NCBI RefSeq assembly: GCF_004010195.1 | Contig: NC_057718.1 | Coordinates: 93,802,179-93,857,552, forward strand | Length of the DNA stretch: 55,374 nucleotides | Reading direction: 5' to 3' | Source: Chiloscyllium plagiosum | Taxonomy: Eukaryota | Part shown: positions 1 to 48,543 of the stretch, piece after piece | How positions within the stretch are numbered: the first letter of the stretch is position 1 | Layout: the number at the start of each line of letters is the position of its first letter | The notes under the pieces: model-generated | Seen by the model: the letters and a program-made list of their open reading frames with translations, nothing else | What the model was told of the DNA's origin: nothing | The model's database searches: none | Position numbers and translations under genes: made by a program

Positions 1-1739
1 GGGATAGTGAGATTGATGGACATGTTTTGTGTCTGTCCCAGGCCTGGTATGAGTGAATTTACCTAGCATTGCACTTAATACTTATCAAAATATTTTTTCA
101 ATGTCTGTGATAGATTTACAATTTTGTGAAATTGGTGACTGGATGAAGCTTCTGTTGTAGAAGCAGGTGAATTATGATTTCCATTGAGAACTGGAAGTAT
201 TCTGTAACAGTTAAAAAGTTGAAAAGGTACATAAAGATACCAATGTACATATGAAAGTTTTTAACCAGTTATTTATTATGTTTGGGGAATAAACAGCCAC
301 ATGGACTCTGTTATACTGTATACCAATGATGCATTAATGCTTTACATCATATTTTAACAATGTTAGAGGAACCAAGACGGCCATTTGGAATATGCTGTAA
401 TACTTTTAAAATTCTTTCATGGGATATGAGTATCACTGGCAAAGCCAGAATTTGTTACCCATCCCGAACTGCACTTCAGAAGGTGGTAATGCGCTGTTGC
501 GAGCTATCTGGTGTTGTTAGGAAGAGAATTTCTCTACAGAGCAATTCAGTTATTTCCATTGCCTGACTGTATTGAAATCAATCAGCTTTTAATGTGAGTT
601 TCTCATTCTTTTATATTTGCACCCAAAATCACTGTTATTGTCAGCTGTGGCACAGATTTGTAGTTTCATTCTGACCTTGGTACATTCAAATGCTGATTTC
701 CACACTTGTTCTTCAAATAGTAAATTAACAAAAAAGCATAACTTATTCTTTCCATTGAAGACAAGATTGGCAATAAGATTTCACTTGAAATTACCACATC
801 AGTTGCGGTTAATTGCTACAAAGACAAGGGGTGTACAGCACAACTGGAAAGCTACGGGCAACAGCATAAGCCTGCAGGAAGAAACACTCCTGTATCTGCT
901 TATACAGCTGAGTTATACACTGTCAGGATTGGTGGAGGGGTCTAAAATACTGCTAAAGCTTGTTTGCTTCTTGCAGAAAACATTTTGACAGAACTGATCC
1001 ATAAAGCATTCTTTTGTCTTTGTGAGAATGTTTTGAAGCCATTTCTTTTATACTTCCTCGGTGATAGGGAAGTGCATGCATGCACGCTGAAAGGAATTCT
1101 GTTAGCATGGAAAGGACTCGTGCAATGATTGATGACCCACTACCTTGATCACCATGCATTTGCCCAGGGTGGTCTCTGCTGTGACTTTAAAGCCACATAA
1201 ACCTCACGTAGCAAAGGCAGCACAAAAGGTATTTCAGCTAAAGAAGGTGCACGAGTTCATGTGGAAAGCAATTTGGCTGGCTTCCAGTAACACTCCTGTT
1301 TGTCAAAACATATATCTTTCTGTAAGGCAGTCCTCAGCATGAAAGGCATGAATTGCAATGTTCCTACTTATTCACACCAAGGAGAAAAATGCTCATTTAA
1401 ACCTGAGTATCTTATCTCTGGTAAGTAATGTTGTTTGTCTTCCATTGTTTCCTGTTTTAGTTCCTACCCTCTTGAGAGAACAGGGAAGCACAATCTAAGC
1501 CCAGACTCTTGGCCTTATTTCCATATGGTGCAGCTGGCCAGATTGTCACAAGACACCCCCTTCCACAGTCGCACGGCTGAGCTGAGCATGGGAATTCGGG
1601 GATAAATTGGTTTTCCATTTGGATCTGAGATGGACTGAACCAATGGGTAGATCGTGATTTGGAGGTGCCGGAGTTAGACTGGAATGTACAAAGTTAAAAA
1701 TCACACAACACCAGGTTATAGTCCAACAGGTTTATTTGG

Positions 1740-1780
1740 AAGCACTAGCTTTCGGAGCGCTGCTCCTTCATCAGGTGGTT
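1740..1780 (-). ncRNA. Minimal type-I hammerhead ribozyme motif (PLE family B), antisense twin
   Basis: Exact reverse complement of the 1789-1829 motif. Confidence 0.75.
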
Positions 1781-1788
1781 GTGGAGAC

Positions 1789-1829
1789 AACCACCTGATG
1801 AAGGAGCAGCGCTCCGAAAGCTAGTGCTT
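1789..1829 (+). ncRNA. Minimal type-I hammerhead ribozyme motif (PLE family B)
   Basis: aaccac-CTGATGA-A-GGAGC-agc-GCTCC-GAA-AGCT-A-gtgctt. Intact core, 5-bp stem II, palindromic AGCU stem III, stem I cac/gtg; predicted cleavage 3' of A1823. Confidence 0.75.
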
Positions 1830-2184
1830 CCAAATAAACCTGTTGGACTATAACCCGGTGATGGATGAATCAGACAGCCTTCCACATTGCCAGATCTCTG
1901 GCACCTCTGCACGAATTGTGACTTCCCATGTTTCAATAACTGTGACACAAGAAGTGTGACTTGAATAGTTTAATTAATTAAAATTAAGCAATTCACTACT
2001 GTTGAGGGTGAGATCTTAGTGGGGTGCTTCTTTTGTCTCGACATCGTTGAGTAAAGAACTCTTTACATGTGGTAGAGCTCTCAATAGCCCAGAGAGCTCT
2101 TAGCCTTTTTAATTCTTGTGTTTCATATATTGTTATAGGTTTCTAAAATAATATTTTTCTAACCTTTCTGATTTGCAGAGATTT

Positions 2185-9703: not shown

Positions 9704-10269
9704 ATTTTACTACTTCATGGTCATAAACCAAACAGTTTGCAAGACAACTCCCGCTGAATAAAGAAAGGGTGAAGGTTTTATGCTTTCATGATGGGCTGCA
9801 TTCACTCGTTTGCTCAGCATAGCTGCCAGGATTGATTGAGATCCCATAAATCTACTGAGGCTATGACTGTTCCCATCCAGCTCCAATGTAACTGCTCAGC
9901 TACACACCACCCCCACCCACAATTAACCCTTCTCCGGGTCAGGACAGAGTTGTCTCACTTGGAGGGAGATAGGTGCCTGATTCCATGCAGATTAAATGGG
10001 TGAAAGTAGACTGAGTGGCAGGAAGAGCTCCACGACGAGGCAGCGCTCCAAATGCTTGTGATTTCAAATAAACCTGTCGAGTAGCTTTTATTTGTCATTT
10101 CTACCATATACAGCAAAAACGAGACAGCGTTGCTCCAGGACTGAGGGTCCTGGATGAAGAAGCTGGTGTCATATGACTTCCGACCTTGTCCACTGCCAGC
10201 ATTATACACAGGATGATTCCGAGCTCAGTGGAGTAGAGAGAGACAAGGGAAATGTTTTAGTCCACCAAG

Positions 10270-12837: not shown

Positions 12838-13318
12838 GAGTGGCACAGTAGCTTAGTGGTTGGCATTGCTGCATCATAGCACCAGGGACCCAGGTTTGCG
12901 TCCATCCTCGGGCGACTGTCTGTATGGAGTTTGCATGTTCTCTCTGTGACTGCATGGGTTTCCTCCAGGTGCGCCGGTTTCCCCCCACAGTGACAATCAC
13001 CTGATGAAGGAGCGTCGCTCCAAAAGCTAGTGTGCTTCCAATTAAACCTGTTGGACTATAACCTGGTGTTGTGTGATTTTTAACTTTGTACACCCCAGTC
13101 CAACACCGGCATCTCCGAATCAGTCCAAAGATATGCAGGCTAGGTGAATTGGCTAAAATGTCCATAGTGTTCATGGATGTGTGGGTTAGGTGCAATAGTC
13201 AGGGGTAAATGTAGAATAATAGGTTAGGAGAACGAGTGTGGGTGGATTATTCTTCGGAGAGTTGGTGTGGGCTTGTTGGGCCGAAGGGCCTGTTTCCACA
13301 CTGTAAAGATTCTACAAT
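12838..13318 (+). mobile_element. HE1 SINE interrupted by a PLE family-B insertion
   Basis: The SINE breaks at CCCACAGT (12990) and resumes at CAGTCCAAAGAT (13120). Confidence 0.85.
12991..13119 (+). mobile_element. PLE family-B mini-insertion with hammerhead motif (GAAA mutated to AAAA)
   Basis: acaatcac-CTGATGAAGGAGCGTCGCTCC-AAAAGCTAG...CACCGGCATCTCCGAAT; CAGT is duplicated at the junctions. Confidence 0.8.
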
Positions 13319-15364: not shown

Positions 15365-16430
15365 GAAAGTTCGATTTTGATTTTATTGTCACAAGTATTT
15401 TACTGTAAGAATACAATAAAATACGGTGAAAGTGTTCATTTGTTCCCATGAAATGGCACCATTTTGAATCATTTAAGAATAAGGAAGTAAATGAAAGATA
15501 TAACTTGGAGAGAGTCTATCAGACCTAAGCCGGCTCATCACCATCGACGAAACCTGTGCCGCTATCCCTCCACCACCACTTCGCCGCCGTCTATGCCAAT
15601 GTTGTAGCAAAATTAATAAAACTCAAATTTAGAAGCAATTCCATCAACTTTATTAAATCAAAAGCTTTTGAGAGGAGCAGCGTGATTCTGACCCTAGCCA
15701 CGGGACTTAACCACGCCATCTCTCCCCGAACATCAGGTACAGCAGTTTATATAGTCTGGATGACGTGTACAGCAAAAGCCCACGAAAGACGGTTTCTTGT
15801 GTTCTGCGCGCGTGCACACAGTGATTGCTAGTTCCAGGAACAGCGTACCACGACGTTGTGTTCTGTATGTATTTCTTCTTTAGTTAGTTTCTGTTTTCGC
15901 CAGACCCAGGCAACATCGGAGTCAACGATCCTCAGGCGTCATCTTTGCCGCTGGGCCGATACTCCTCCTCCACCAACACCACCGCCTCCACCACTGCCAC
16001 CTACACTAGACCAACCAATGTCAGAATCATGTCTTTCGCCGCTGTGCCCACCTCACCGTGATGCCCTTCCGCTGCCAGCGCTGGACCAACCATCAACGAG
16101 ATTACCTGTCCACAGGCGCCATCTTTTGCTGCTGGGCCTACCTCGCCGACATCGCCTCTGTTGATGTAGCAGCCACCGATTCCAGGCCCTGTGCTGGCTC
16201 TGGAAAAGTAATTAATGGCTTACTCTCCTGTGGACTGGGCCTGCTTGAGGTCCGCACCCTGGGTCCACTTCAGGTCCTGCACTGGGCTCTCATTGCCACC
16301 AATGCTGTCCAAGCTCAGGATAAGGCAAGTAAATGAAAGAAAAGCAGTTGAAACGGACAAGTTCTGGCCCTGGAGCCCTACACCATTGCCATCTTGGACT
16401 GGAGGAACCAGAAGACTCTCCCTCTGCTGC
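15365..16430 (-). mobile_element. Non-coding GC-rich retroelement with Rex/Babar-type tail
   Basis: Minus-strand tail TTTCAC-hairpin-GTGACAATAAAATCAAAATC at 15372-15432; head CCAAGATGGC at about 16388-16397. Confidence 0.55.
15603..15850 (-). mobile_element. Candidate solo LTR
   Basis: TG...CA termini. Minus-strand order is CRE-like ACACGTCA, TATATAAA, then AATAAA. Flanks CAATGT/CGACGT are consistent with a CpG-decayed 6-bp TSD. Confidence 0.5.
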
Positions 16431-16498
16431 ACCCCCTCAGCAGAGTTGGGGGGGGGGGGTCTTCCAGCTCCTCCAGTCCAAGATGGTGGTGGTGTAGG
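16377..16498. repeat. Imperfect inverted repeat (arms about 55-60 bp)
   Basis: CCTACACCATTGCCATCTTGGACTGGAGGA...TCTGCTG versus CAGCAGA...TCCTCCAGTCCAAGATGGTGGTGGTGTAGG. Confidence 0.85.
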
Positions 16499-18252
16499 TT
16501 TCAGTGATAAGTATATCTCTTCTTTGTTAAGGAGACCAAGACTGTGCACAAGACTCCAGTGTATGGTCTCACTAAGGGCATGTGTGAACTCAGAATGAAG
16601 GCCAATATACCGTTAGCATTCCTAACTGTTGAATGCATCTGCAGTCACATGGTAAACCTTTGGGAAGTCCAGCTAATCAAGGAAAACAAACATCTCCCAA
16701 TCCATCCGGACCTCAGCCATATCCTTCAACCTCATCGGAAATCCCAGAAGCCCTTTAGAACCCAGAGCAATTGACCTTCAGCAATGGAGCTTCAGCCGCG
16801 GTGAAGTTTGTAATGTCAAATGAAGTTTACAATAAGTCACAAAGTAACACCTCATGAAAGATCCAACACAGAACATTCCTGTCGTTGTACTTTCCAAAAC
16901 TATATCTGTACAATCCACTGTAGGCGCACGTACGTGATGCACAACTAGAAGATTAAATACCTTCCAATGTTCTGCTGAGGTTACCTACACCAGACCATGG
17001 AGTGATAAGTGACAACATATTGCCAAACAGAAGGCATCACGGTGCATTCCAGCATTCCTAGCACAACTATCTACTTTAAGAATCTGAATGTAAAAAATCA
17101 GAATTCCTGCTCAGTCATTAAAAAAATAATTTCTATTTAGTTTTCAATTGCACTTTGCTCAACAATATCAGTCTTTAGCTATTGTCCTAAACTAATTCTG
17201 TTCCCTTTGAGATCTAATTACAGCAGGTTACCAGCTCAATTTGAGTTAAGTCTATGGATCTTTGATCTATTTACCTAACTAGGTGATAGGCTACATATTT
17301 TAATGTCATTGTCTTTCTTCACCTTGTCACTTTCCTTCATGTTTAACACCTTTTCTGGGTTAGCCTCACAGATTCTGCAGTTGCCAAGCCTTCAATTCCT
17401 AAACTGTTATCCTCCAATGCCTTGTTTTCTCTCCTGATAACCGACAGCAGTGAATTGAAGAGACGTGCTGTCCCTAACCATCATTACCCGGCAAAACCAG
17501 GAATAACAAGCTTGGATTTTCACCAACCTGCTGTATTTTTCCTTGAAGTCACTGGGCCAGCCCCTAATGTCCTGTTGATAGCGGTTGAGCGACCAACTTG
17601 TTCAGCAACATTCTCACAGATATTCTTGGACGAATTGTCGGCTGCCTTATCTTTAGTCCACCTGAGCTTTGAGAAAATGTGCAAAGTTAATTTGTGCTCT
17701 AAAGGCCTCAGATTGAACTCTAACCGCTTTTCTGTTTGCTGAGAGAGGTTTAATCTGCCAAATGGACCACATAGGTCACAGGGAATGTATCATTCCTTCA
17801 CCCTCCCTACCTCCTCCCTCTCATGCTTTGCCTCTTTCATTGCAGGTCTTGCTGAGATTAGGAATGTATGGCATTAAGGTCAAAATGTATCTGGCCATTC
17901 TATAGCTCATTACATCAATGCACAATTTGTGGCTCCCATTTCCTTGTTTAAATCTGCAGGCAAGGCATCATAAAAGGAAGAAATTTCCAATATGTAATTT
18001 GGTTTTTGATCTACTTTGATTTGCAAATATTCTTCAAAGGGTTCAGAAATGTGTCAGTTTTCGACTGAGATACCTCATCAAAAATACTCCCAAACAACTT
18101 CCTCTTTATTGTCCTCTGACTTTTGTTTATATTTTGCTGGCTTTTTTGGCATTTTGCACAGACCCTTTCCACCAGACCATGCCAATTATATGTGGGTGTG
18201 CCAAAGGCTTTTTAACATGGGAAATGATCAAATCTGAGGTCTGTCCTGTCAT

Positions 18253-21390: not shown

Positions 21391-22246
21391 ACTAACCTAA
21401 TCATCTCTATTTTCCTCAGCCTCATTCCTTGAACCTTCCATTGGCCTTGCACTAGAATTCTGGGGAATCTCCTGAAAAATTCAGCCCCTGCAGATGTTTA
21501 GTCACAGTTGACTATCAGAACGTCACAAATCCCTTGTTTTTCCCTGAATCCCAGGATGAAGTTCACTCAGAGGTCTGTATTCCTGGACCATAACTTTGCT
21601 CTACTATGTCCAATTGACATTTACAGTTGTAACTCTTGACATGAGGTGTTTATTTATTAAACCATGAGCAAATGGCAAGCTGTCATGAAGACACTTCAGA
21701 ACCCAGATGGCAACAGGAAATTTCAATTGCTCATGGTTTTTCACAGTTGGTCTTGCCTTGTGCTAAAAGTGGGCCGAGCATGTCTTATTTTTGGCTCATT
21801 AAGCGAACCAATGTTATTACGCCACAGGTTTTTAAACATCAAAATTCAACCTTACCCAACCCATTCTCTGATCAGTTTCTGCCATTCAGTGTTTCAGAAC
21901 CTTGGAGCTGCCCATTACAACGTCTTGTGGCTTTTGCCCACAGCTTCTTCATTTTTTTTTTAAAAAGCTGAATACATTGAGGAAACCATTAAAATTACAG
22001 TACGTTCTCTTCAAATCAGGATTTCTGTGGCAGTCCGCTGCAGGTTATTGGCTTAGCTCATCTGATCTTTCTTAACTTGAATGATTCATATGGCTATTTC
22101 TCACTGGACAGACAACTCATGATGATTTATGTTATGCCTAAAGATTACAGTGAGAAAGACCCCTAAACTGTTCTTTACATCTCTCAAACCCCAATGTAGA
22201 GATTTTAAACTATTTGGTGCTAAATAGCTTTATTTTTTTTGATAGG

Positions 22247-22474
22247 CAAAAGTGAGGATTGCTGATGCTGGGAATCAGAGTCTTGATTAGAGTGGCGCAG
22301 GAAAAGCACAGCAGGTCAGGCAGCATCCGAGGAGCAGGAAAATCGATATTTTGGGCAAAAGCCCTTCATCAGCGTTCAGTCCTGATGAAGGGCTTTTGCC
22401 CAAAACGTCGATTTTCCTGCTCCTTGGATGCAGCCTGACCTGCTGTGCTTTTCCAGCACCACTCTAATCTCGAC
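22247..22474. mobile_element. PLE family-A inverted pair
   Basis: Minus copy 22247-22372, short spacer, plus copy from 22381 (CCTGATGAAGGGCTTTTGCCCAAAACGTCG). Flanked by TTTATTTTTTTTGAT / TTTATGTTTTTTGAT. Confidence 0.85.
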
Positions 22475-22560
22475 ATTTATGTTTTTTGATGGCTGGTTTG
22501 TGACTTGTGAAACTTTGTTGGGAGATGATTATCTGTAGGTAAGAGGATGGGAGCAGGATG

Positions 22561-23289
22561 TACAAAGTTAAAAATCACACAACACCAGGTTATAGTCCAA
22601 CAGGTTTATTTAGAAGCACTAGCTTTCGGAGCACTGCTTCTTCATCAGGTGGTTGTGGAGTGTTAGATTGTGAGAAACAGAATTTATAACAGAAGTTTGC
22701 AGAGTGATGTAACTGAAATTATATATTGAAAATTACCTGGATTGTTTGTTTAGCCTCTCATTTGTTAGAATTACCATGTTGGTTTCAGTTCTTTTACATG
22801 TAAATCGCAAAACTTTTTTTAAAAGTTACATTCTCAAGTGAACTTTAACAATTGGTGTCGTTGGCCCAGATAATGCATTGAAGGTGTGAGGTGCCCTGTG
22901 TGAGGCTGTCTGTGCCCCAATGTTCAGATTGATTCTGACCATTGGACAGTTGGACTGAACACCCCAGTCCAACACCAGCATCTCCAAATCATGACTACCA
23001 TTGACACCACTAACTACTGGCATAAAGTGGAGAAGATCTCCAAGAAGATCGCACATAATGAGACTAAACAAACAATCCAAGTCTTTTTCAATATGTAATT
23101 TCAGTTACATCACACTGTAAACGTCTGCTCTAAATTCTGTGTCTTACAATCTTATACTCCACAACCACCTGATGAAAGAGCAGTGCTACGAAAGCTAGTG
23201 CTTCCAAATAAACCTGTTGGACTATAACCTGGTGTTGTGTGATTTTTAACTCTGTACACCCCAGTCCAACACCGGCATCTCCAAATCGA
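22561..23289. mobile_element. Internally deleted PLE family-B element with inverted pLTRs
   Basis: Inverted terminal segments of about 200 bp, each with a hammerhead motif; TSD GAGCAGGATG at 22551-22560 and 23290-23299. Confidence 0.85.
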
Positions 23290-24287
23290 GAGCAGGATGG
23301 ATTTTGAAAAAAAAATCCCAAAATGACACCGAGCATCTTGTGATATCCTGTTGCCTGACTCCAATCTGGTAAAGTGCAACTGGTTTGACATTCCCAGCAT
23401 CAGTAAACTGAAACCTTGCCAGCACTCTTTGTAATGAAAAGGTATATTTCGAGAAAGTGAAAATGTTAATTAAAGGACAATGGGAGAGTTTTTATTACGA
23501 CAACCCAAAGATAAATAAACAGCTCAAGGTACAATTCTACCTACCTGTTACCTAAGAGACCTCACGTAACATACCTGATAAATCATGGACAGCACTTTGC
23601 TGACAAAGGTCCAGTTTACCCTGCCAATGATAGTGCAGTATTGGACACGGGACAGGCAAACAAACATGGTCTGCCAGCCGAAGGTATTTAGCACTCTAAA
23701 CAAAATCTGTCTCCATACACTTAAGATTAGCACACAACTTAATTTTAAAAAGGGGGAGAAAATGCCACAGCAGCTAAGTTGGAATCTGATAGTCTTGTAG
23801 CACGCTGCACTGCTTCACTTAAAATTCTTTCAAAATCTAGTTCAAGTGAGCAATAATGGATGAACAGGTTTAAGCTGTCCTTCCCCAGTCAATACACAGC
23901 GAGACTTTGTATACTGCCCACCTACTGTTCGCATTCACAGGAAATCTGCATCATTGAAAGGAGATTACTTCCCTTGACAGTAAGCAGTGGTGAGCAATGA
24001 AAATTATTCCATTTGTCAGGAATTTAGCTTAACGTTAAGAAGCTTCCTTTGGAAAGGGGACTTTGAGGTGACCTAGTTGAAGTCCTTGAGATTAATGATG
24101 GCAATTGACACAGTCAATCCAGGCAAATTACGTACTTTGGGGAAATTTTCAAAGCACTGGGGGCATAAGGTAAAAATGAGAGTGCTAAAGATTGCTTCTG
24201 GACAATGTGGCATTAACAGAAGAATATACAAGTTGTAAGCGCTCAGGTTTAATCTCAAATTTGCCATGAGCCTAGCTCATGCTGACT

Positions 24288-30820: not shown

Positions 30821-32269
30821 GTATTTTACAAATCCTCCACCCTGTTTAAGACGTTAAAGGTGGTTAAAGGGAAAGTCAGTCCACAATCATAGCATGTTAA
30901 GACTGTGGAAGGACAAGTTAAAATATTAAGAATGAAAAACAGAGTTTAGGGCTGTTATGGTGCAGTGGTAGTGGCCCTAGCTCTGCGCCAGGAGACCTGC
31001 TCTTTTCTCTGCAAAGGTTGATTAGAAAATGTATAAAAAGGTGAAGTAACTGTCAAGTTCTTATATTTTGTTAATTTCCTTTAAGACAATAAAAGCTAAA
31101 CATTCTAATATGCTTGCATTTGATTTTCCAAAGAAGTATAAAAAAGCAGCCAGAAATACAATTCAACTTTGGGTAGAATTACCTTGTATTCTCAATTTTC
31201 TTCATTAAGTTAACCACAACAGGCAATGGTTACTGCCCACATCATTAAGTTCCAATTAAGCAACAATTAAAGGGCAGATGCTCCTTAAAACCAGCTGCCT
31301 GTTCTTTTCTGTGTCGTTGACTTGCATGATAAAAGTAGGGTCCTGTTTGAAATATAGTTGAGTGACTACAGACTGTTGGAAAAATGCTTATGGCAAAATC
31401 TGACACTGTTTATGCGTGGTTTCATTAAAACCCTTGGCCTTTGACTTGACCTTTCAGATCTTTGTTGAAATTCCTTTGATAGGGCAGAGTACATCTTGTC
31501 ACTTTCGAAGAATGACCTTTAGTTTCCTTTACCTGGAAAGGACCTTTACTACATCAGCATGTGAATTCTGAATTCCTGAATAATTGTTTCCTAATTCCTT
31601 CTTTTTGTCTAGGACTTAATTTCCAAGGTTTTATCATGTTATATTAAATACCAAAAGATGGAACTTCATGCTTTATTGAATATTGCAGTTCTTGTATGAA
31701 AAGGATTGTTCATGTCTTTATAACAACAATTTATATTTGTATAGTGTCCCTAAGGTATTGAAACATCCCAAGGTGCATTTATAAAACCAAATATGACACA
31801 AAGCCACATAAGAAGATATTGGGCAGATGTTACTGGTCATGCAATGAGCCTGTTTAACAGACAGAGCACAGGTAGCTGCTGTGTCACAGCTAGCCCTGGG
31901 AGACCTGTGGGATTAAATCCTATTAGTCACCCCACTTTCTGCTATCCAGGTTCCCAGCTCCTGCTTTTGGGCTCTGCCATCTCTTTATATTGTCAGCACC
32001 AGTGTGAGAGGTGGCCAGTGCCTGTATTGCTGTAATCCCTGAGGAGGAAGATTGTTTCTGGAGCGTCTGATGAAAATGAGGGATCGACATGATTAGATTC
32101 AGTCAGGGCTTCCCCCACAATAGGGAGGAAGGGTTGATGGAGTCATTATGAAGGATATGGGGGTAACTAACTGGGTCCTGCCATTAGGCACAGGAAGCCT
32201 GTGGAGGAGAGATCTGTGTCACTCCCCCCCTGCAGAAATGCTTGGTTTGCTTGGTTGAATACCAGCAGT

Positions 32270-32410
32270 TGTTGAAAATATGTTGCTGGAAAAGCACAGC
32301 AGGTCAGGCAGCATCCAAGGAACAGGAGAATCGATGTTTCAGGCATGAGCCCTTCTTCAGTTTTCAGCTCTGATCTCCAGCATCTGCAGTCCTCACTTTC
32401 TCCTAGAAGA
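32270..32410. mobile_element. PLE family-A insertion with 5' inversion
   Basis: Inverted hammerhead half 32270-32360, direct tail 32361-32410; perfect 14-bp TSD TGAATACCAGCAGT at 32256-32269 and 32411-32424. Confidence 0.85.
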
Positions 32411-32574
32411 TGAATACCAGCAGTGATAGGATTGAGGTCCTTAACTCAATGGACCTCAGGGTGCCAAGACCATCCTCAATCCCGCTATTACCAGCTTAAA
32501 CTGAGGGAATTTGGGAAGGCAACAGTGTGCATACCTGTCATATTATACTACCTCTCCACTGTCTCCCAAACTAA

Positions 32575-38094: not shown

Positions 38095-38990
38095 TTATAG
38101 CAGTCTTCCCACTCCAGTCACAAGGTAGTAATTTTAAACATAATCCCATGACGTGGGGCAGGTAATCCAAGCTGGCATTCCAGGGCAGTACTGAAGGACT
38201 GCTGCATTGTTAGAGGCGCTGTCTTTTGGAGAAGATATTATACTCTGTCCCCTCCTGGGAGGTCGATGTAAATGTTAGCCATCGTGTGGAGGTGCCGGTC
38301 TTGGACTGGGATGGACAAAGTTAAAAATTTTCATGCATTGTCTGAGTTGAGATGTCACATTTTATTATAAAACCTAAAGTTATCTCGGGGCTGTGACTTG
38401 AAAGAAGTTTTGAGATGTTTATATTAATGAATCAAAACCTGCAACCCACTCTCAGTGATTAAAGACTTAAGGCTTAAACAGTGGTTAGCACTGCTGCCTC
38501 ACAGCGCCAGAGACCTGGGTTCAATTCCTGTCTCAGGCAACTGTCTGTATGGAGTTTGCACATTCTCCCCGTGTCTGCGTGGGTTTCCTCCGGGTGCTCT
38601 GGTTTCGTCCCACAGTCCAAAGATGTGCAGGTTAGGTGAATTGGCCATGCTAAGTTGCCCGTAGTGTTAGGTGAAGGGGTAAATGTAGGGGAATGGGTCT
38701 GGGTGGGTTGCTCTTCGGAGGGTTGGTGTGGATTTGTTGGGCCAAAGGGCCTGTTTCCACACTGTAAGTAATCTAATCAATCTAGGTTTGTTCACTATAT
38801 TGCACAGTTGTATGACACTTCTACTCTTCTACTCTAAATTCTGTGTCCTATGATCCTGCCCCATTCGCTCCCTGAGGAAGGAGCAGCGTTCCAAAAGCTT
38901 GTACTTCCAAAGAAACCTGTTGGACTATAACCTGGTGTTGTGTGATTTTTAACAATGTAAATTTTATCCAGCGTTATTTTGAAGAGCAGA
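38095..38990 (+). mobile_element. Deu-domain SINE split by a PLE family-B insertion, itself split by an HE1 SINE (38478-38783)
   Basis: Deu core GCAGTACTGAAGGACTGCTGCATTGTTAGAGGCGCTGTCTTTTGG. PLE 38286-38954 is bounded by a 17/20 TSD (38266-38285, 38955-38974). Confidence 0.7.
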
Positions 38991-41470: not shown

Positions 41471-41848
41471 GGGGGAACAGAGGAGTGAGCCCTCTCTGCT
41501 AGCTCCAGGTCGCTGGCCTGTGCTTCTCTCTGGCTAAGATGATGTGTTTTAGTGTGAGTGAAATACACCATGTTTTACCATGTTTTGAACCAGTCACCTT
41601 TCTTTTCATTTCTTGCCCCGTCCCATCCCCGCCAGTAATACAACTCGTTTTTTTTTTAAGGTTTGCTTGCTTGGCAACATAGCCACTACACCAACACATC
41701 TAGCCAGAGGGTAGTGAATCTATTGAAATTCTGGCTGTAGAAGCTGGTCCATCAAGTAAATTCATGGCTGGAGTAGACAGATTTGTAATCAGTCAGAGAA
41801 TCAAGGGTATTGAGGAAAAGGCATGAAAGTGGAGTTCAGGATTATCAA

Positions 41849-42393
41849 AGACCGTCCCTTTCGTGACTACCTGGTCAGGTCCTCACCCCCCTACAACCCA
41901 CCCTCCCATCCTGGCACCTTCCCCTGCCACCACAGGGATTGCAAAACCTGCGCCCACACCTCCTCCCTCACCTCCATCCAAGGCCCTAAAGGAGCTTTCC
42001 ATATCCATCAAAGTTTTACCTGCACGTCCACCAATATCATTTATTGTATCCGTTGCTCCCGATACGGTCTCCTCTACATTGGGGAGACTGGATGCCTCCT
42101 AGCAGAGCACTTTAGGGAACATCTCTGGGACACCCGCACCAATCAACCACACCGCCCTGTGGCCCAACATTTCAACTCTCCCTCCCACTCTGCCGAGGAC
42201 ATGGAGGTCCTGGGCCTCCTTCACCGCCGCTCCCTCACCACCAGACGCCTGGAGGAAGAACGCCTCATCTTCCGCCTCGGAACACTTCAACCCCAGGGCA
42301 TCAATGTGGACTTCAACAGCTCCCTCATTTCCCCTTCCCCCACCTCACCCCAGTTCCAAACTTCCAGCTCAGCACTGCCCCCATGACTTGTCC
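41849..42393 (+). mobile_element. Neptune-type Penelope element: Cys-rich linker, GIY-YIG endonuclease C-terminus and start of 3' UTR
   Basis: ORF 41823-42386: PCHHRDCKTC...NIIYCIRCSRYGLLYIGETG...FREH...VAQHF...RRLEEERLIFRLGTLQPQGIN. Inserted after a CR1 3' remnant (41705-41848) and truncated by the gap. Confidence 0.9.
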
Positions 42394-47068: not shown

Positions 47069-47234
47069 TCGAGCGCCCGCTATATGAATGGTACACATGA
47101 CAGTGCCCATGTTGGACATAATTGCCCATTTCCAGCCTGTAAAATGAGTGCAACTCTGACAACGATCCTGGCTATGGTGCACTAGAATCTTACAAATGTG
47201 AATTAAGTTATTTAAATAAGGGTCTGATACTGGC

Positions 47235-47757
47235 TGTGGTAGCCAACTCCTCCTCCCACTCTGCCAATGACATGCAGGTCCTGGGCCTCCTCCATTGCCA
47301 AACCCTAACCACTTGACGCTTGGAGGAGGAACGCCTCATTTCCCTGCCTTAGGACCCTACAACCATGCGGGAACAATATGGATTTCACCAGTTTCCCCAT
47401 TTCCCTCTCCCCACCTTATCCCAGTCCCAACCTTCCAACTCAGCACTGCCCGATTGAAAGGTCCTACATATCCATCTTCCTTCCCAACTATCCGCTCCAC
47501 TCTCCTCTCTGACCTGCCACCATCACCCCACCTTCATCTACTTATCACACTCTCAGCTACCTTGTCCACTCCCCCCCCACCCCCAGTCCACTCCCCTCCC
47601 ATTTATCTCTCAGCACCACCCGGCCCACAAGCCTCCATCTTGATGAGGGCTTATGCTCGAAATGTTGACTCTCCTGCTCCTCGGATGCTGCCTGACCGGC
47701 TGTGCTTCTTCAGCACAACACTCTTCAACTCTGATCTCCAGCATCTCACTTTCTCCC
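47235..47757 (+). mobile_element. PLE family-A 3' fragment (GIY-YIG tail, UTR, degenerate hammerhead, terminus)
   Basis: Homologous to 42160-42393, then continues to TTGATGAGGGCTTATGCTCGAAATGTTG at 47640 and the CTCACTTTCTCC end. Confidence 0.85.
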
Positions 47758-48543
47758 TGTGGCAGCCATTTGTAAAATTTGGCTTGTCAGTACTTGACTG
47801 ACCATGAGGTGACTGTACCTATTCTCTCAATGGCTTTGACGTAGGTTCCCAGTTCCCAGTTGTCGCCTTCACATGGACACATACTGGCTGGGAAAACTAC
47901 AAACTAAAAGTTCTCACTCACTGAGCGGCAAGTCAACCTCTGTCAGATAAGTGCGGCAGATGTCACATGGTCAGATGCTAGGTGGTCGCAGTGTCCCTGT
48001 GGCCAAACCTCCCGGACGACCTCCCGCCAGAGCTGGCATTGCTCAGGATGTGCAAGCTGATGGTTCTTGCAAGTTGTTGAATTTTTTTTCGTCTGCCTGA
48101 ACAAAAAACTGGAAAAAAAAACCTCTGCCCAGGAGAATGGAATTTCGTTTGCTGTTTTCTGACAACACATTACAAGCTGTCATCAGATCCTGATCTGATT
48201 TATCGTGAAGAATTTAAATTAGATTTGGGGGGATTATCCAGGTCAGTTGCAATTGGGAGTCTACTTGCAAACTGTGTGGAAAATATTTCAAACTCCACAG
48301 GCAGTAATGAGCCACTTTGTGAATTACTTCTTGAACCCTTAATACTTGTACGGCAACAGTTTATTTAAACAGCTGGGACATCCTGTGAAATGCAACACTG
48401 ACAATACTATCCTCCACATAAGAATTTCTGGAACTGATCATGAAGTTAGCTGATGTTTGTCAATGGGGCTAATACAAGACCTGCACCACAGAGCATCCAA
48501 TCAAAGTAATGCCACCGCAGACATGTTGAGTGTGACACTCGGT

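What the first reader, a model, noticed from the sequence alone, without database searches (positions are those of the whole stretch)
1709..1860. 74-bp near-perfect hairpin carrying two back-to-back intact hammerhead ribozyme motifs
Seen: the arms pair at 73/74 positions around a 4-nt loop, and each arm holds CUGAUGA-A-(GGAGC/GCUCC)-GAA-AGCU-A with a cac/gug stem I. Known: Penelope-like elements carry minimal type-I hammerheads whose palindromic stem III lets them cleave as dimers, and some natural hammerheads have an extra A after A9. Inference: any transcript through this site has one sense ribozyme sequestered by its own antisense copy, so it would form a long dsRNA hairpin that competes with ribozyme folding.
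Basis: partly seen in the sequence, partly recalled or inferred. Interest (0 to 1): 0.75.

Follow-up and report, generated by a model that had tools for sequence, protein, structure and literature searches.

The report
Head-to-head Penelope retrotransposon stub, shark
The hairpin is real but ordinary: it is two short end-pieces of a very common shark repeat, most likely a Penelope-like jumping gene, set back to back in one old insertion, likely as a by-product of copying from both cut DNA strands rather than as a ribozyme switch.

Summary
Observation confirmed: arms 1709-1782 and 1787-1860 pair at 73 of 74 positions around GGAG, with one minimal type-I hammerhead motif per strand. The unit is larger than reported: 1655-1860, two 5'-truncated copies of a high-copy repeat joined head to head, a 30-nt tail on one end only, and a decayed 12-bp target duplication. 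It is shared by two related organisms. The window holds five such head-to-head insertions from two families. This layout is in print for Penelope-like elements (PLEs), and this scan noted it before on other DNA (192 notes, at least 22 genomes). The sister family is tied to an RT/GIY-YIG ORF; this family's own ORF was not found. Folding predicts that the hairpin would silence the sense ribozyme, but no read shows this locus transcribed, Rfam gives no hammerhead match, and cleavage is untested. Likely mechanism: priming at both cut strands, reverse transcriptase running off the RNA's front end, then end joining. One lead: among 33 printed junctions from other loci, 14 of 66 5' ends fall 0-3 nt after the predicted cut (biased sample). 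Verdict: new member of a known kind, low interest.

The parts
1643..1654 (.). Left target-site duplication (12 bp, decayed)
   Evidence: 8 of 12 to the right copy in the window (not above chance); 10 of 12 with organism B alleles, 11 of 12 with B left and run X1 right alleles
1655..1786 (-). 5'-truncated pLTR copy with tail (132 nt)
   Evidence: 93% to 23157-23287, 90% to 12993-13122
1655..1684 (-). 30-nt tail, present on this end only
   Evidence: Copies end either with it (13122, 23287) or without it (22558-22561; loose ends at 1688-1693); alignment
1696..1712 (-). GU/U-rich stretch downstream of the poly(A) site (inferred downstream element); cut off in the right copy
   Evidence: Sequence
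1716..1719 (-). Position equivalent to the family's oligo-dT-primed RNA 3' ends (other copies)
   Evidence: 86 + 63 of 390 reads laid from run X21 carry poly-T loose ends here
1731..1736 (-). AATAAA poly(A) signal, left copy
   Evidence: the common family variant gives ATTAAA (1735 T>A)
1743..1777 (-). Minimal type-I hammerhead motif, left copy; predicted cut after 1746
1783..1786 (.). Junction / 4-nt loop: first 4 nt of the left copy; G1786 may instead be an extra, cap-derived G of the right copy
1787..1860 (+). 5'-truncated pLTR copy without tail (74 nt), starting at the inferred transcription start
1792..1826 (+). Minimal type-I hammerhead motif, right copy; predicted cut after A1823
1833..1838 (+). 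AATAAA poly(A) signal, right copy
1861..1872 (.). Right target-site duplication

Best explanation
This is one old insertion (1655-1860) of two short, 5'-truncated copies of a high-copy repeat end, most likely the pseudo-LTR of a Penelope-like retrotransposon, joined head to head, likely because the element's enzyme cut both target strands and copied the front of its RNA from each cut end. Shown: the two inverted copies, the one-sided tail, presence in two organisms, four more such insertions in the window, and poly(A)-type RNA ends just behind the ribozyme motif in other copies. Inferred: (1) a staggered cut leaves the 12-bp duplication; (2) each 3' end primes cDNA at an internal site of the RNA, one including the tail, one not; (3) both cDNAs run off at or near the capped 5' end just ahead of the hammerhead (the right copy starts at the same base, after a G, as an unrelated copy that has a non-templated G); (4) the two cDNA ends are joined. 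The hammerhead, poly(A) signal and start site are passengers from the element's LTR-like end; the hairpin is a by-product. If the site is ever transcribed, the RNA is predicted to form a 74-bp duplex in which the ribozyme cannot fold.
For: Inverted copies and tail asymmetry. Four further head-to-head insertions with target duplications of 10/10, 17/20, 14/15 (scores of that size in 1 of 298 random position pairs) and 13/13. Unique flank contigs enter the element from both sides in 4 of 6 DNA runs, of both organisms (X1, X3, X9, X13). 95,240-113,654 contigs per run lie on 1200-2400, and more than 1,300 further joint rows were not shown (these include a second repeat at 2224-2400). Junctions at other loci are mostly asymmetric (offsets 0-67 nt), often with filler letters (tables 5c), as end joining of two independent cDNAs predicts. 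Extra G at 12992 against empty-site SINE copies and G-started joints at 1786. Sister family with the same motif architecture is co-linear with a GIY-YIG ORF end whose relatives carry RT and GIY-YIG matches. Print: inverted 5'-truncated copy with one-sided 30-40-bp tail (PMC8557442, PMC3846280); opposite-strand hammerhead pairs 100-700 bp apart (PMC4209133); PLE protein cleaves and extends both strands and starts RT internally (PMC11167929).
Against: This family's own RT/endonuclease ORF was not found. The target duplication is not above chance on window letters alone (152 of 298 random pairs score as well) and needs alleles from other runs. The right copy ends about 16-24 nt short of the usual tail-less end, and the loop is only 4 nt, which fits snap-back as well. 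G1786 is ambiguous here because the left copy also explains it. The arms are closer to the family majority (1 of 148) than the unpaired part (4-5 of 58; Fisher p 0.007-0.023, post hoc), which this model does not explain.
Confidence: 0.75

Rival explanations
1. Same element, different chemistry: one cDNA was made from the left cut, folded back at its 3' end around the 4-nt loop and copied itself for 74 nt (snap-back / self-priming).
For: Tiny loop, near-identical arms, non-standard right end. PMC3846280 proposes self-priming for head-to-head PLE junctions (passage seen).
Against: Untruncated copies continue upstream with letters that give no pairing to prime the fold-back; 30 of 33 printed junctions at other loci are offset by more than 3 nt and many hold filler; G-started copies suggest RNA-templated 5' ends.
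Confidence: 0.17
2. The insertion is real but the near-perfect arms are partly an assembly effect: reads from many other copies pulled both arms toward the family majority.
For: No listed contig bridges the centre; arms differ from the majority at 1 of 148 sites while the insertion predates a split with 12 differences in 503 and 15 in 420 flank bases; two other inverted pairs in the window are only 90-91% complementary.
Against: One private mismatch is kept (C1856); unique contigs stop at 1702-1706 and start at 1834, as expected if the arms really are near the majority; about 2 differences expected from the split alone is compatible with 1 seen. This rival is not exclusive of the best explanation.
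Confidence: 0.1
3. A co-opted regulatory hairpin: the host transcribes the site, and the duplex silences the ribozyme or feeds Dicer/ADAR.
For: Very stable predicted duplex; arms unusually intact, all four ancestral CpG sites kept; present in two organisms.
Against: The layout is routine (5 in 55 kb); 0 of 390 laid RNA reads touch the unique flanks (about 2 in 100 of one run, weak); no host exon was identified near it.
Confidence: 0.04
4. The hairpin is itself a mobile unit (MITE-like or hairpin retrozyme) that spreads as a whole.
For: Some contigs from other loci span a centre of the same length (table 8, 10-15% diverged).
Against: All five insertions in the window have different geometry; ends are unequal; 10-20-bp duplications; junction positions vary widely; no tandem array.
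Confidence: 0.03

Closest known systems
Insertion units of endonuclease-positive Penelope-like elements with inverted pLTR, one-sided tail and TSD (Adineta Pen2a_Av, PMC3846280, passages seen; PMC8557442 Fig. 2 legend, passages seen)
   Same: Inverted 5'-truncated copy next to the 5' end, head-to-head junction, about 30-nt tail on one end, target duplication of 9-12 bp.
   Different: No ORF between the arms; both copies are under 135 nt, so the whole insertion is a hairpin; right copy stops short of the usual tail-less end.
Minimal type-I hammerheads (min-HHR) of metazoan PLEs (PMC4209133, parts 1-2 of 4 read)
   Same: Full core, unpaired base between 9 and 10.1, G10.1-C11.1, palindromic 15.2-16.2, no real helix III, opposite-strand pairs close together.
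   Different: Helix II 5 bp (7-8 in the Schistosoma motifs), helix I 3 bp plus a mismatch and 2 bp, CUA triplet; an AAUAAA 10 nt behind the predicted cut.
Poseidon PAc of Anolis (PMC11167929, parts 1-2 of 4 read)
   Same: Two 3' boundaries flanking a tail; genomic copies and RNA reads carry the uncut hammerhead.
   Different: There the ORF starts inside the hammerhead; here the candidate start codon follows the tail (22991) and is unconfirmed.
Non-LTR retrozymes (bioRxiv 10.64898/2026.07.22.740005, part 1 of 5 and passages)
   Same: Short, non-coding, type-I hammerhead, PLE-derived.
   Different: Those are direct tandem repeats with same-strand hammerheads able to dimerise; this is inverted with one motif per strand.

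Membership tests
EN+ Penelope-like element | RT plus GIY-YIG ORF linked to this terminal repeat family | tested here: inconclusive
   No ORF in the insertion; 30-45-aa frame after a tail at 22991 gave no credible relative. Met only for the sister family.
EN+ Penelope-like element | Hammerhead motif in the pLTR | tested here: met
EN+ Penelope-like element | Inverted 5'-truncated copy at the 5' end | tested here: met
   four more in the window
EN+ Penelope-like element | 30-40-bp tail at one end only | tested here: met
   1655-1684 present left, absent right; one-sided in all 5 insertions
EN+ Penelope-like element | Target-site duplication | tested here: inconclusive
   8/12 in the window (chance level), 10-11/12 with alleles of other runs; clear at the other 4 insertions
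Minimal type-I hammerhead (min-HHR) | Core CUGANGA, GAAA, UH; extra base after A9; G10.1-C11.1; palindromic 15.2-16.2 | tested here: met
   sister family keeps the pattern with different stem letters
Minimal type-I hammerhead (min-HHR) | Self-cleavage as a dimer or with protein help | not testable with these tools
   Double-hammerhead fold -17.7 kcal/mol against -27.1 for the best dimer of the same 41-mers; no piled read ends in a library unsuited to show them
Rfam hammerhead families | Covariance-model match | tested here: not met
   No hammerhead family at E<=1 on the window or E<=10 on 1775-1875; that these models need a helix III is recalled, not checked
Non-LTR retrozyme | Direct tandem units, each with a hammerhead | tested here: not met
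   Inverted, no tandem array here
MITE | Uniform unit with matched terminal inverted repeats and short fixed TSD | tested here: not met
   Unequal ends, variable geometry, 10-20-bp duplications
Hairpin siRNA / editing substrate | Locus-specific transcript with small RNAs or A-to-G changes | tested here: inconclusive
   No locus-specific read; 96% filter would drop heavily edited reads; no small-RNA data

The most novel reading that the evidence does not exclude
The 5' ends of this family's head-to-head stubs mark the real 5' ends of the element's RNA: the cap site (1786-1797), the hammerhead cut (1824-1827) and perhaps the poly(A) cut (1848-1853). The shark genome would then hold a fossil record that a minimal PLE hammerhead cleaves in vivo and that cleaved RNA is reverse transcribed, a point that RNA-seq failed to show for PAc (PMC11167929).
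Probability: 0.2. Interest if true: 0.55.

Novelty: new member of a known kind. Interest (0 to 1): 0.13.

Why it matters
The locus itself matters little: it is one of very many stubs. As a class, such minimal insertions record both ends of the PLE integration reaction, which is still unresolved (two-ended priming against self-priming), and their 5' ends may show whether the hammerhead cuts in vivo. They are also a large latent source of long dsRNA in shark transcriptomes if transcribed.

Tried and rejected
No whole genome is held, so no genome-wide count. Rfam: no hammerhead match. Exact-pattern scans of metagenome, viral and prokaryote collections: 0 hits in 4 of 4 scans. Family ORF search with the short frame after the tail at 22991: none, 3 repeat-inflated unrelated hits, no usable atlas hit. 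First TSD guess (1630-1640 against 1861-1871) and an apparent extension of the left copy to 1641 were dropped after one search showed a 10-nt length polymorphism there and a better duplication at 1643-1654. No RNA holder was listed for the stretch; X22 laid 0 reads (no test). No A>G or T>C place in X21, but these reads come from other copies and passed a 96% filter, so this says nothing on editing. No piled read ends: this library type would likely lose a 30-nt 3' cleavage product. Host gene: ORF lists were read by eye only; none identified. Literature: two searches for this family in sharks (listings only) and one for copies ending at the cut site (2 papers listed) showed no such report; subscription papers, Repbase/Dfam and all supplements were not seen.

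Full report
Observation. The arms 1709-1782 and 1787-1860 are reverse complements at 73 of 74 positions around GGAG; the fold is -151.8 kcal/mol, z -23.45. Each copy has stem I CAC/GUG, CUGAUGA, an extra A, a 5-bp stem II, GAA, AGCU and A17 (A1823 on +, 1746 on -). A strict descriptor finds 4 motifs in the window and none in 30 shuffles. The two motifs are on opposite strands. Rfam gives no hammerhead match.

What it is part of. Both arms belong to a dispersed repeat with further copies at 12993-13122, 22558-22660, 23157-23287, 38871-38963 and a decayed piece at 10040. The left copy (minus strand) runs on to 1655 and carries a 30-nt tail; the right copy stops at 1860. Positions 1643-1654 and 1861-1872 match at 8 of 12 in the window, which is chance level (152 of 298 random pairs). 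They match at 10 of 12 with organism B's alleles and 11 of 12 when run X1's right allele is added. I read this as a decayed target duplication. Unique flank contigs enter the element from both sides in X1, X3 (organism A), X9 and X13 (organism B); X5 and X14 list no such pair (4 of 6 DNA runs). The orientation is therefore real, and the insertion predates a split of about 2-4% flank divergence. No listed contig bridges the centre.

How common. The window holds four more head-to-head insertions: two of this family (about 22561-23289, TSD 10/10; about 38286-38954, TSD 17/20) and two of a sister family (22244-22475, TSD 14/15; 32269-32410, TSD 13/13). Each has the tail on one end only. Roughly 95,000-114,000 contigs per run lie on 1200-2400, which also holds a second repeat; the tool gives no copy number. 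The sister family's hammerhead end is co-linear with a GIY-YIG ORF end (47206-47451); the longer ORF piece at 41814-42383 matches shark proteins (Chiloscyllium punctatum 87%, Rhincodon typus 61%) with weak RT and GIY-YIG Pfam matches, so the host is a shark-like fish. For the finding's own family the ORF link was not shown.

RNA. Run X21 (about 2 in 100 read) laid 390 reads, none on the unique flanks; X22 laid none. The reads come from other copies. 149 of 390 carry poly-T loose ends at 1716 or 1719, equal to sense 1853 and 1850, 12-15 nt behind AATAAA and ahead of a GU-rich stretch; the common family variant there gives ATTAAA. So the family's end likely holds a working poly(A) signal 10 nt behind the predicted ribozyme cut (internal priming at other loci is not excluded). 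Depth runs across the predicted cut without piled ends, so uncut RNA exists.

Folding. In the 74-nt monomer stem II forms (p 0.97-0.99) and stem I does not (p 0.0). A double hammerhead of two 41-mers scores -17.7 against -27.1 kcal/mol for the best dimer. In the hairpin, stem II has p about 1e-19 and forcing the ribozyme stems costs 67.6 kcal/mol.

Mechanism. Both copies read as cDNA extending from a target 3' end on opposite strands, the geometry expected if both strands are cut and primed; PAc protein does cleave and extend both strands and starts RT at two internal sites that bound the tail (PMC11167929). The right copy starts at A1787 after a G. The unrelated copy at 12993 starts at the same base after a G that empty-site SINE copies and untruncated copies lack, and joints at other loci start at G1786 with no overlap. 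I take this as run-off at a capped start; the lead came from note e1-9879030 and I checked it only on these cases. The fit of this base to an initiator consensus is recalled, not tested. At this locus the G is ambiguous. Snap-back (PMC3846280) remains possible given the 4-nt loop and the short right end. Confidence: PLE-type stub about 0.9; two-ended priming about 0.75.

Junction lead. I tallied 33 unique head-to-head joints from the printed rows (tables 5 and 5c), dropping 3 rows that return to the left arm and 4 in the other repeat; 1,315, 788, 243 and 244 further rows were not shown, and the printed ones are the best supported. Of 66 5' ends, 14 lie at 1824-1827 (3.3 expected if uniform over 1783-1863), 2 at 1819-1823, 13 at 1791-1795, 3 at 1786-1787 and 7 at 1848-1853. 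The edge at 1824 is where a cleaved RNA would begin. Against: the mode is 1827, not 1824; the sample is biased; RT pausing at the small AGC/GCU hairpin or pairing between the stem I strands could do the same; and note e1-9830462 reports stutters ending mostly 6-7 nt past the cut in another genome (not checked here).

Unexplained. The arms differ from the in-window majority at 1 of 148 sites, the unpaired part at 4-5 of 58 (post hoc p 0.007-0.023); other copies differ at 3 of 74. Small numbers, tail subfamilies, or assembly polishing could each explain it.

Known and new. The layout is described for PLEs (PMC8557442 and PMC3846280, passages; PMC2377424, passages), as are minimal hammerheads with the extra base and opposite-strand pairs (PMC4209133, parts 1-2 of 4). 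PMC6155905 (passages) added nothing on sharks. No supplements were read; they, and Repbase or Dfam, may name this family. This scan holds 192 notes with the same words in at least 22 genomes; these are unchecked and not counted as support. Verdict: new member of a known kind, interest 0.13.

Noticed in passing
window 22551-23299: Same-family insertion with inverted copy, a partial tandem (tail plus a short open frame from 22991) and a perfect 10-bp TSD.
   Followed up: partly
window 38266-38974: Same-family head-to-head insertion, 17/20 TSD, later interrupted by a SINE-like repeat at about 38480-38778.
   Followed up: partly
window 22229-22490 and 32256-32423: Sister-family head-to-head insertions with 14/15 and 13/13 TSDs; in the first, both copies start within 2 nt of the hammerhead core with 7 nt of filler between.
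   Followed up: partly
window 41814-42386 and 47206-47780: PLE GIY-YIG ORF ends; the first is cut by the 899-N gap, the second leads into the sister family's hammerhead end.
   Followed up: partly
window 12992-13122: Single copy inserted in a SINE-like repeat, with an extra G at its 5' end.
   Followed up: yes
window 1642: 10-nt length polymorphism next to the left TSD: the longer allele is in X3, X9 and X13, the window's form in X1.
   Followed up: partly
window 1716-1719 / 1850-1853: Family RNA ends in poly(A) here; several genomic junction ends at other loci also fall at 1848-1853.
   Followed up: partly
window 1761 (sense 1808): Common family variant (18-36% of depth) sits in hammerhead loop II, leaving stem II intact.
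   Followed up: no
window 16394-16481: G-rich imperfect hairpin inside a decayed coding-like stretch (15529-16600); weak Rfam miRNA-type score only.
   Followed up: no
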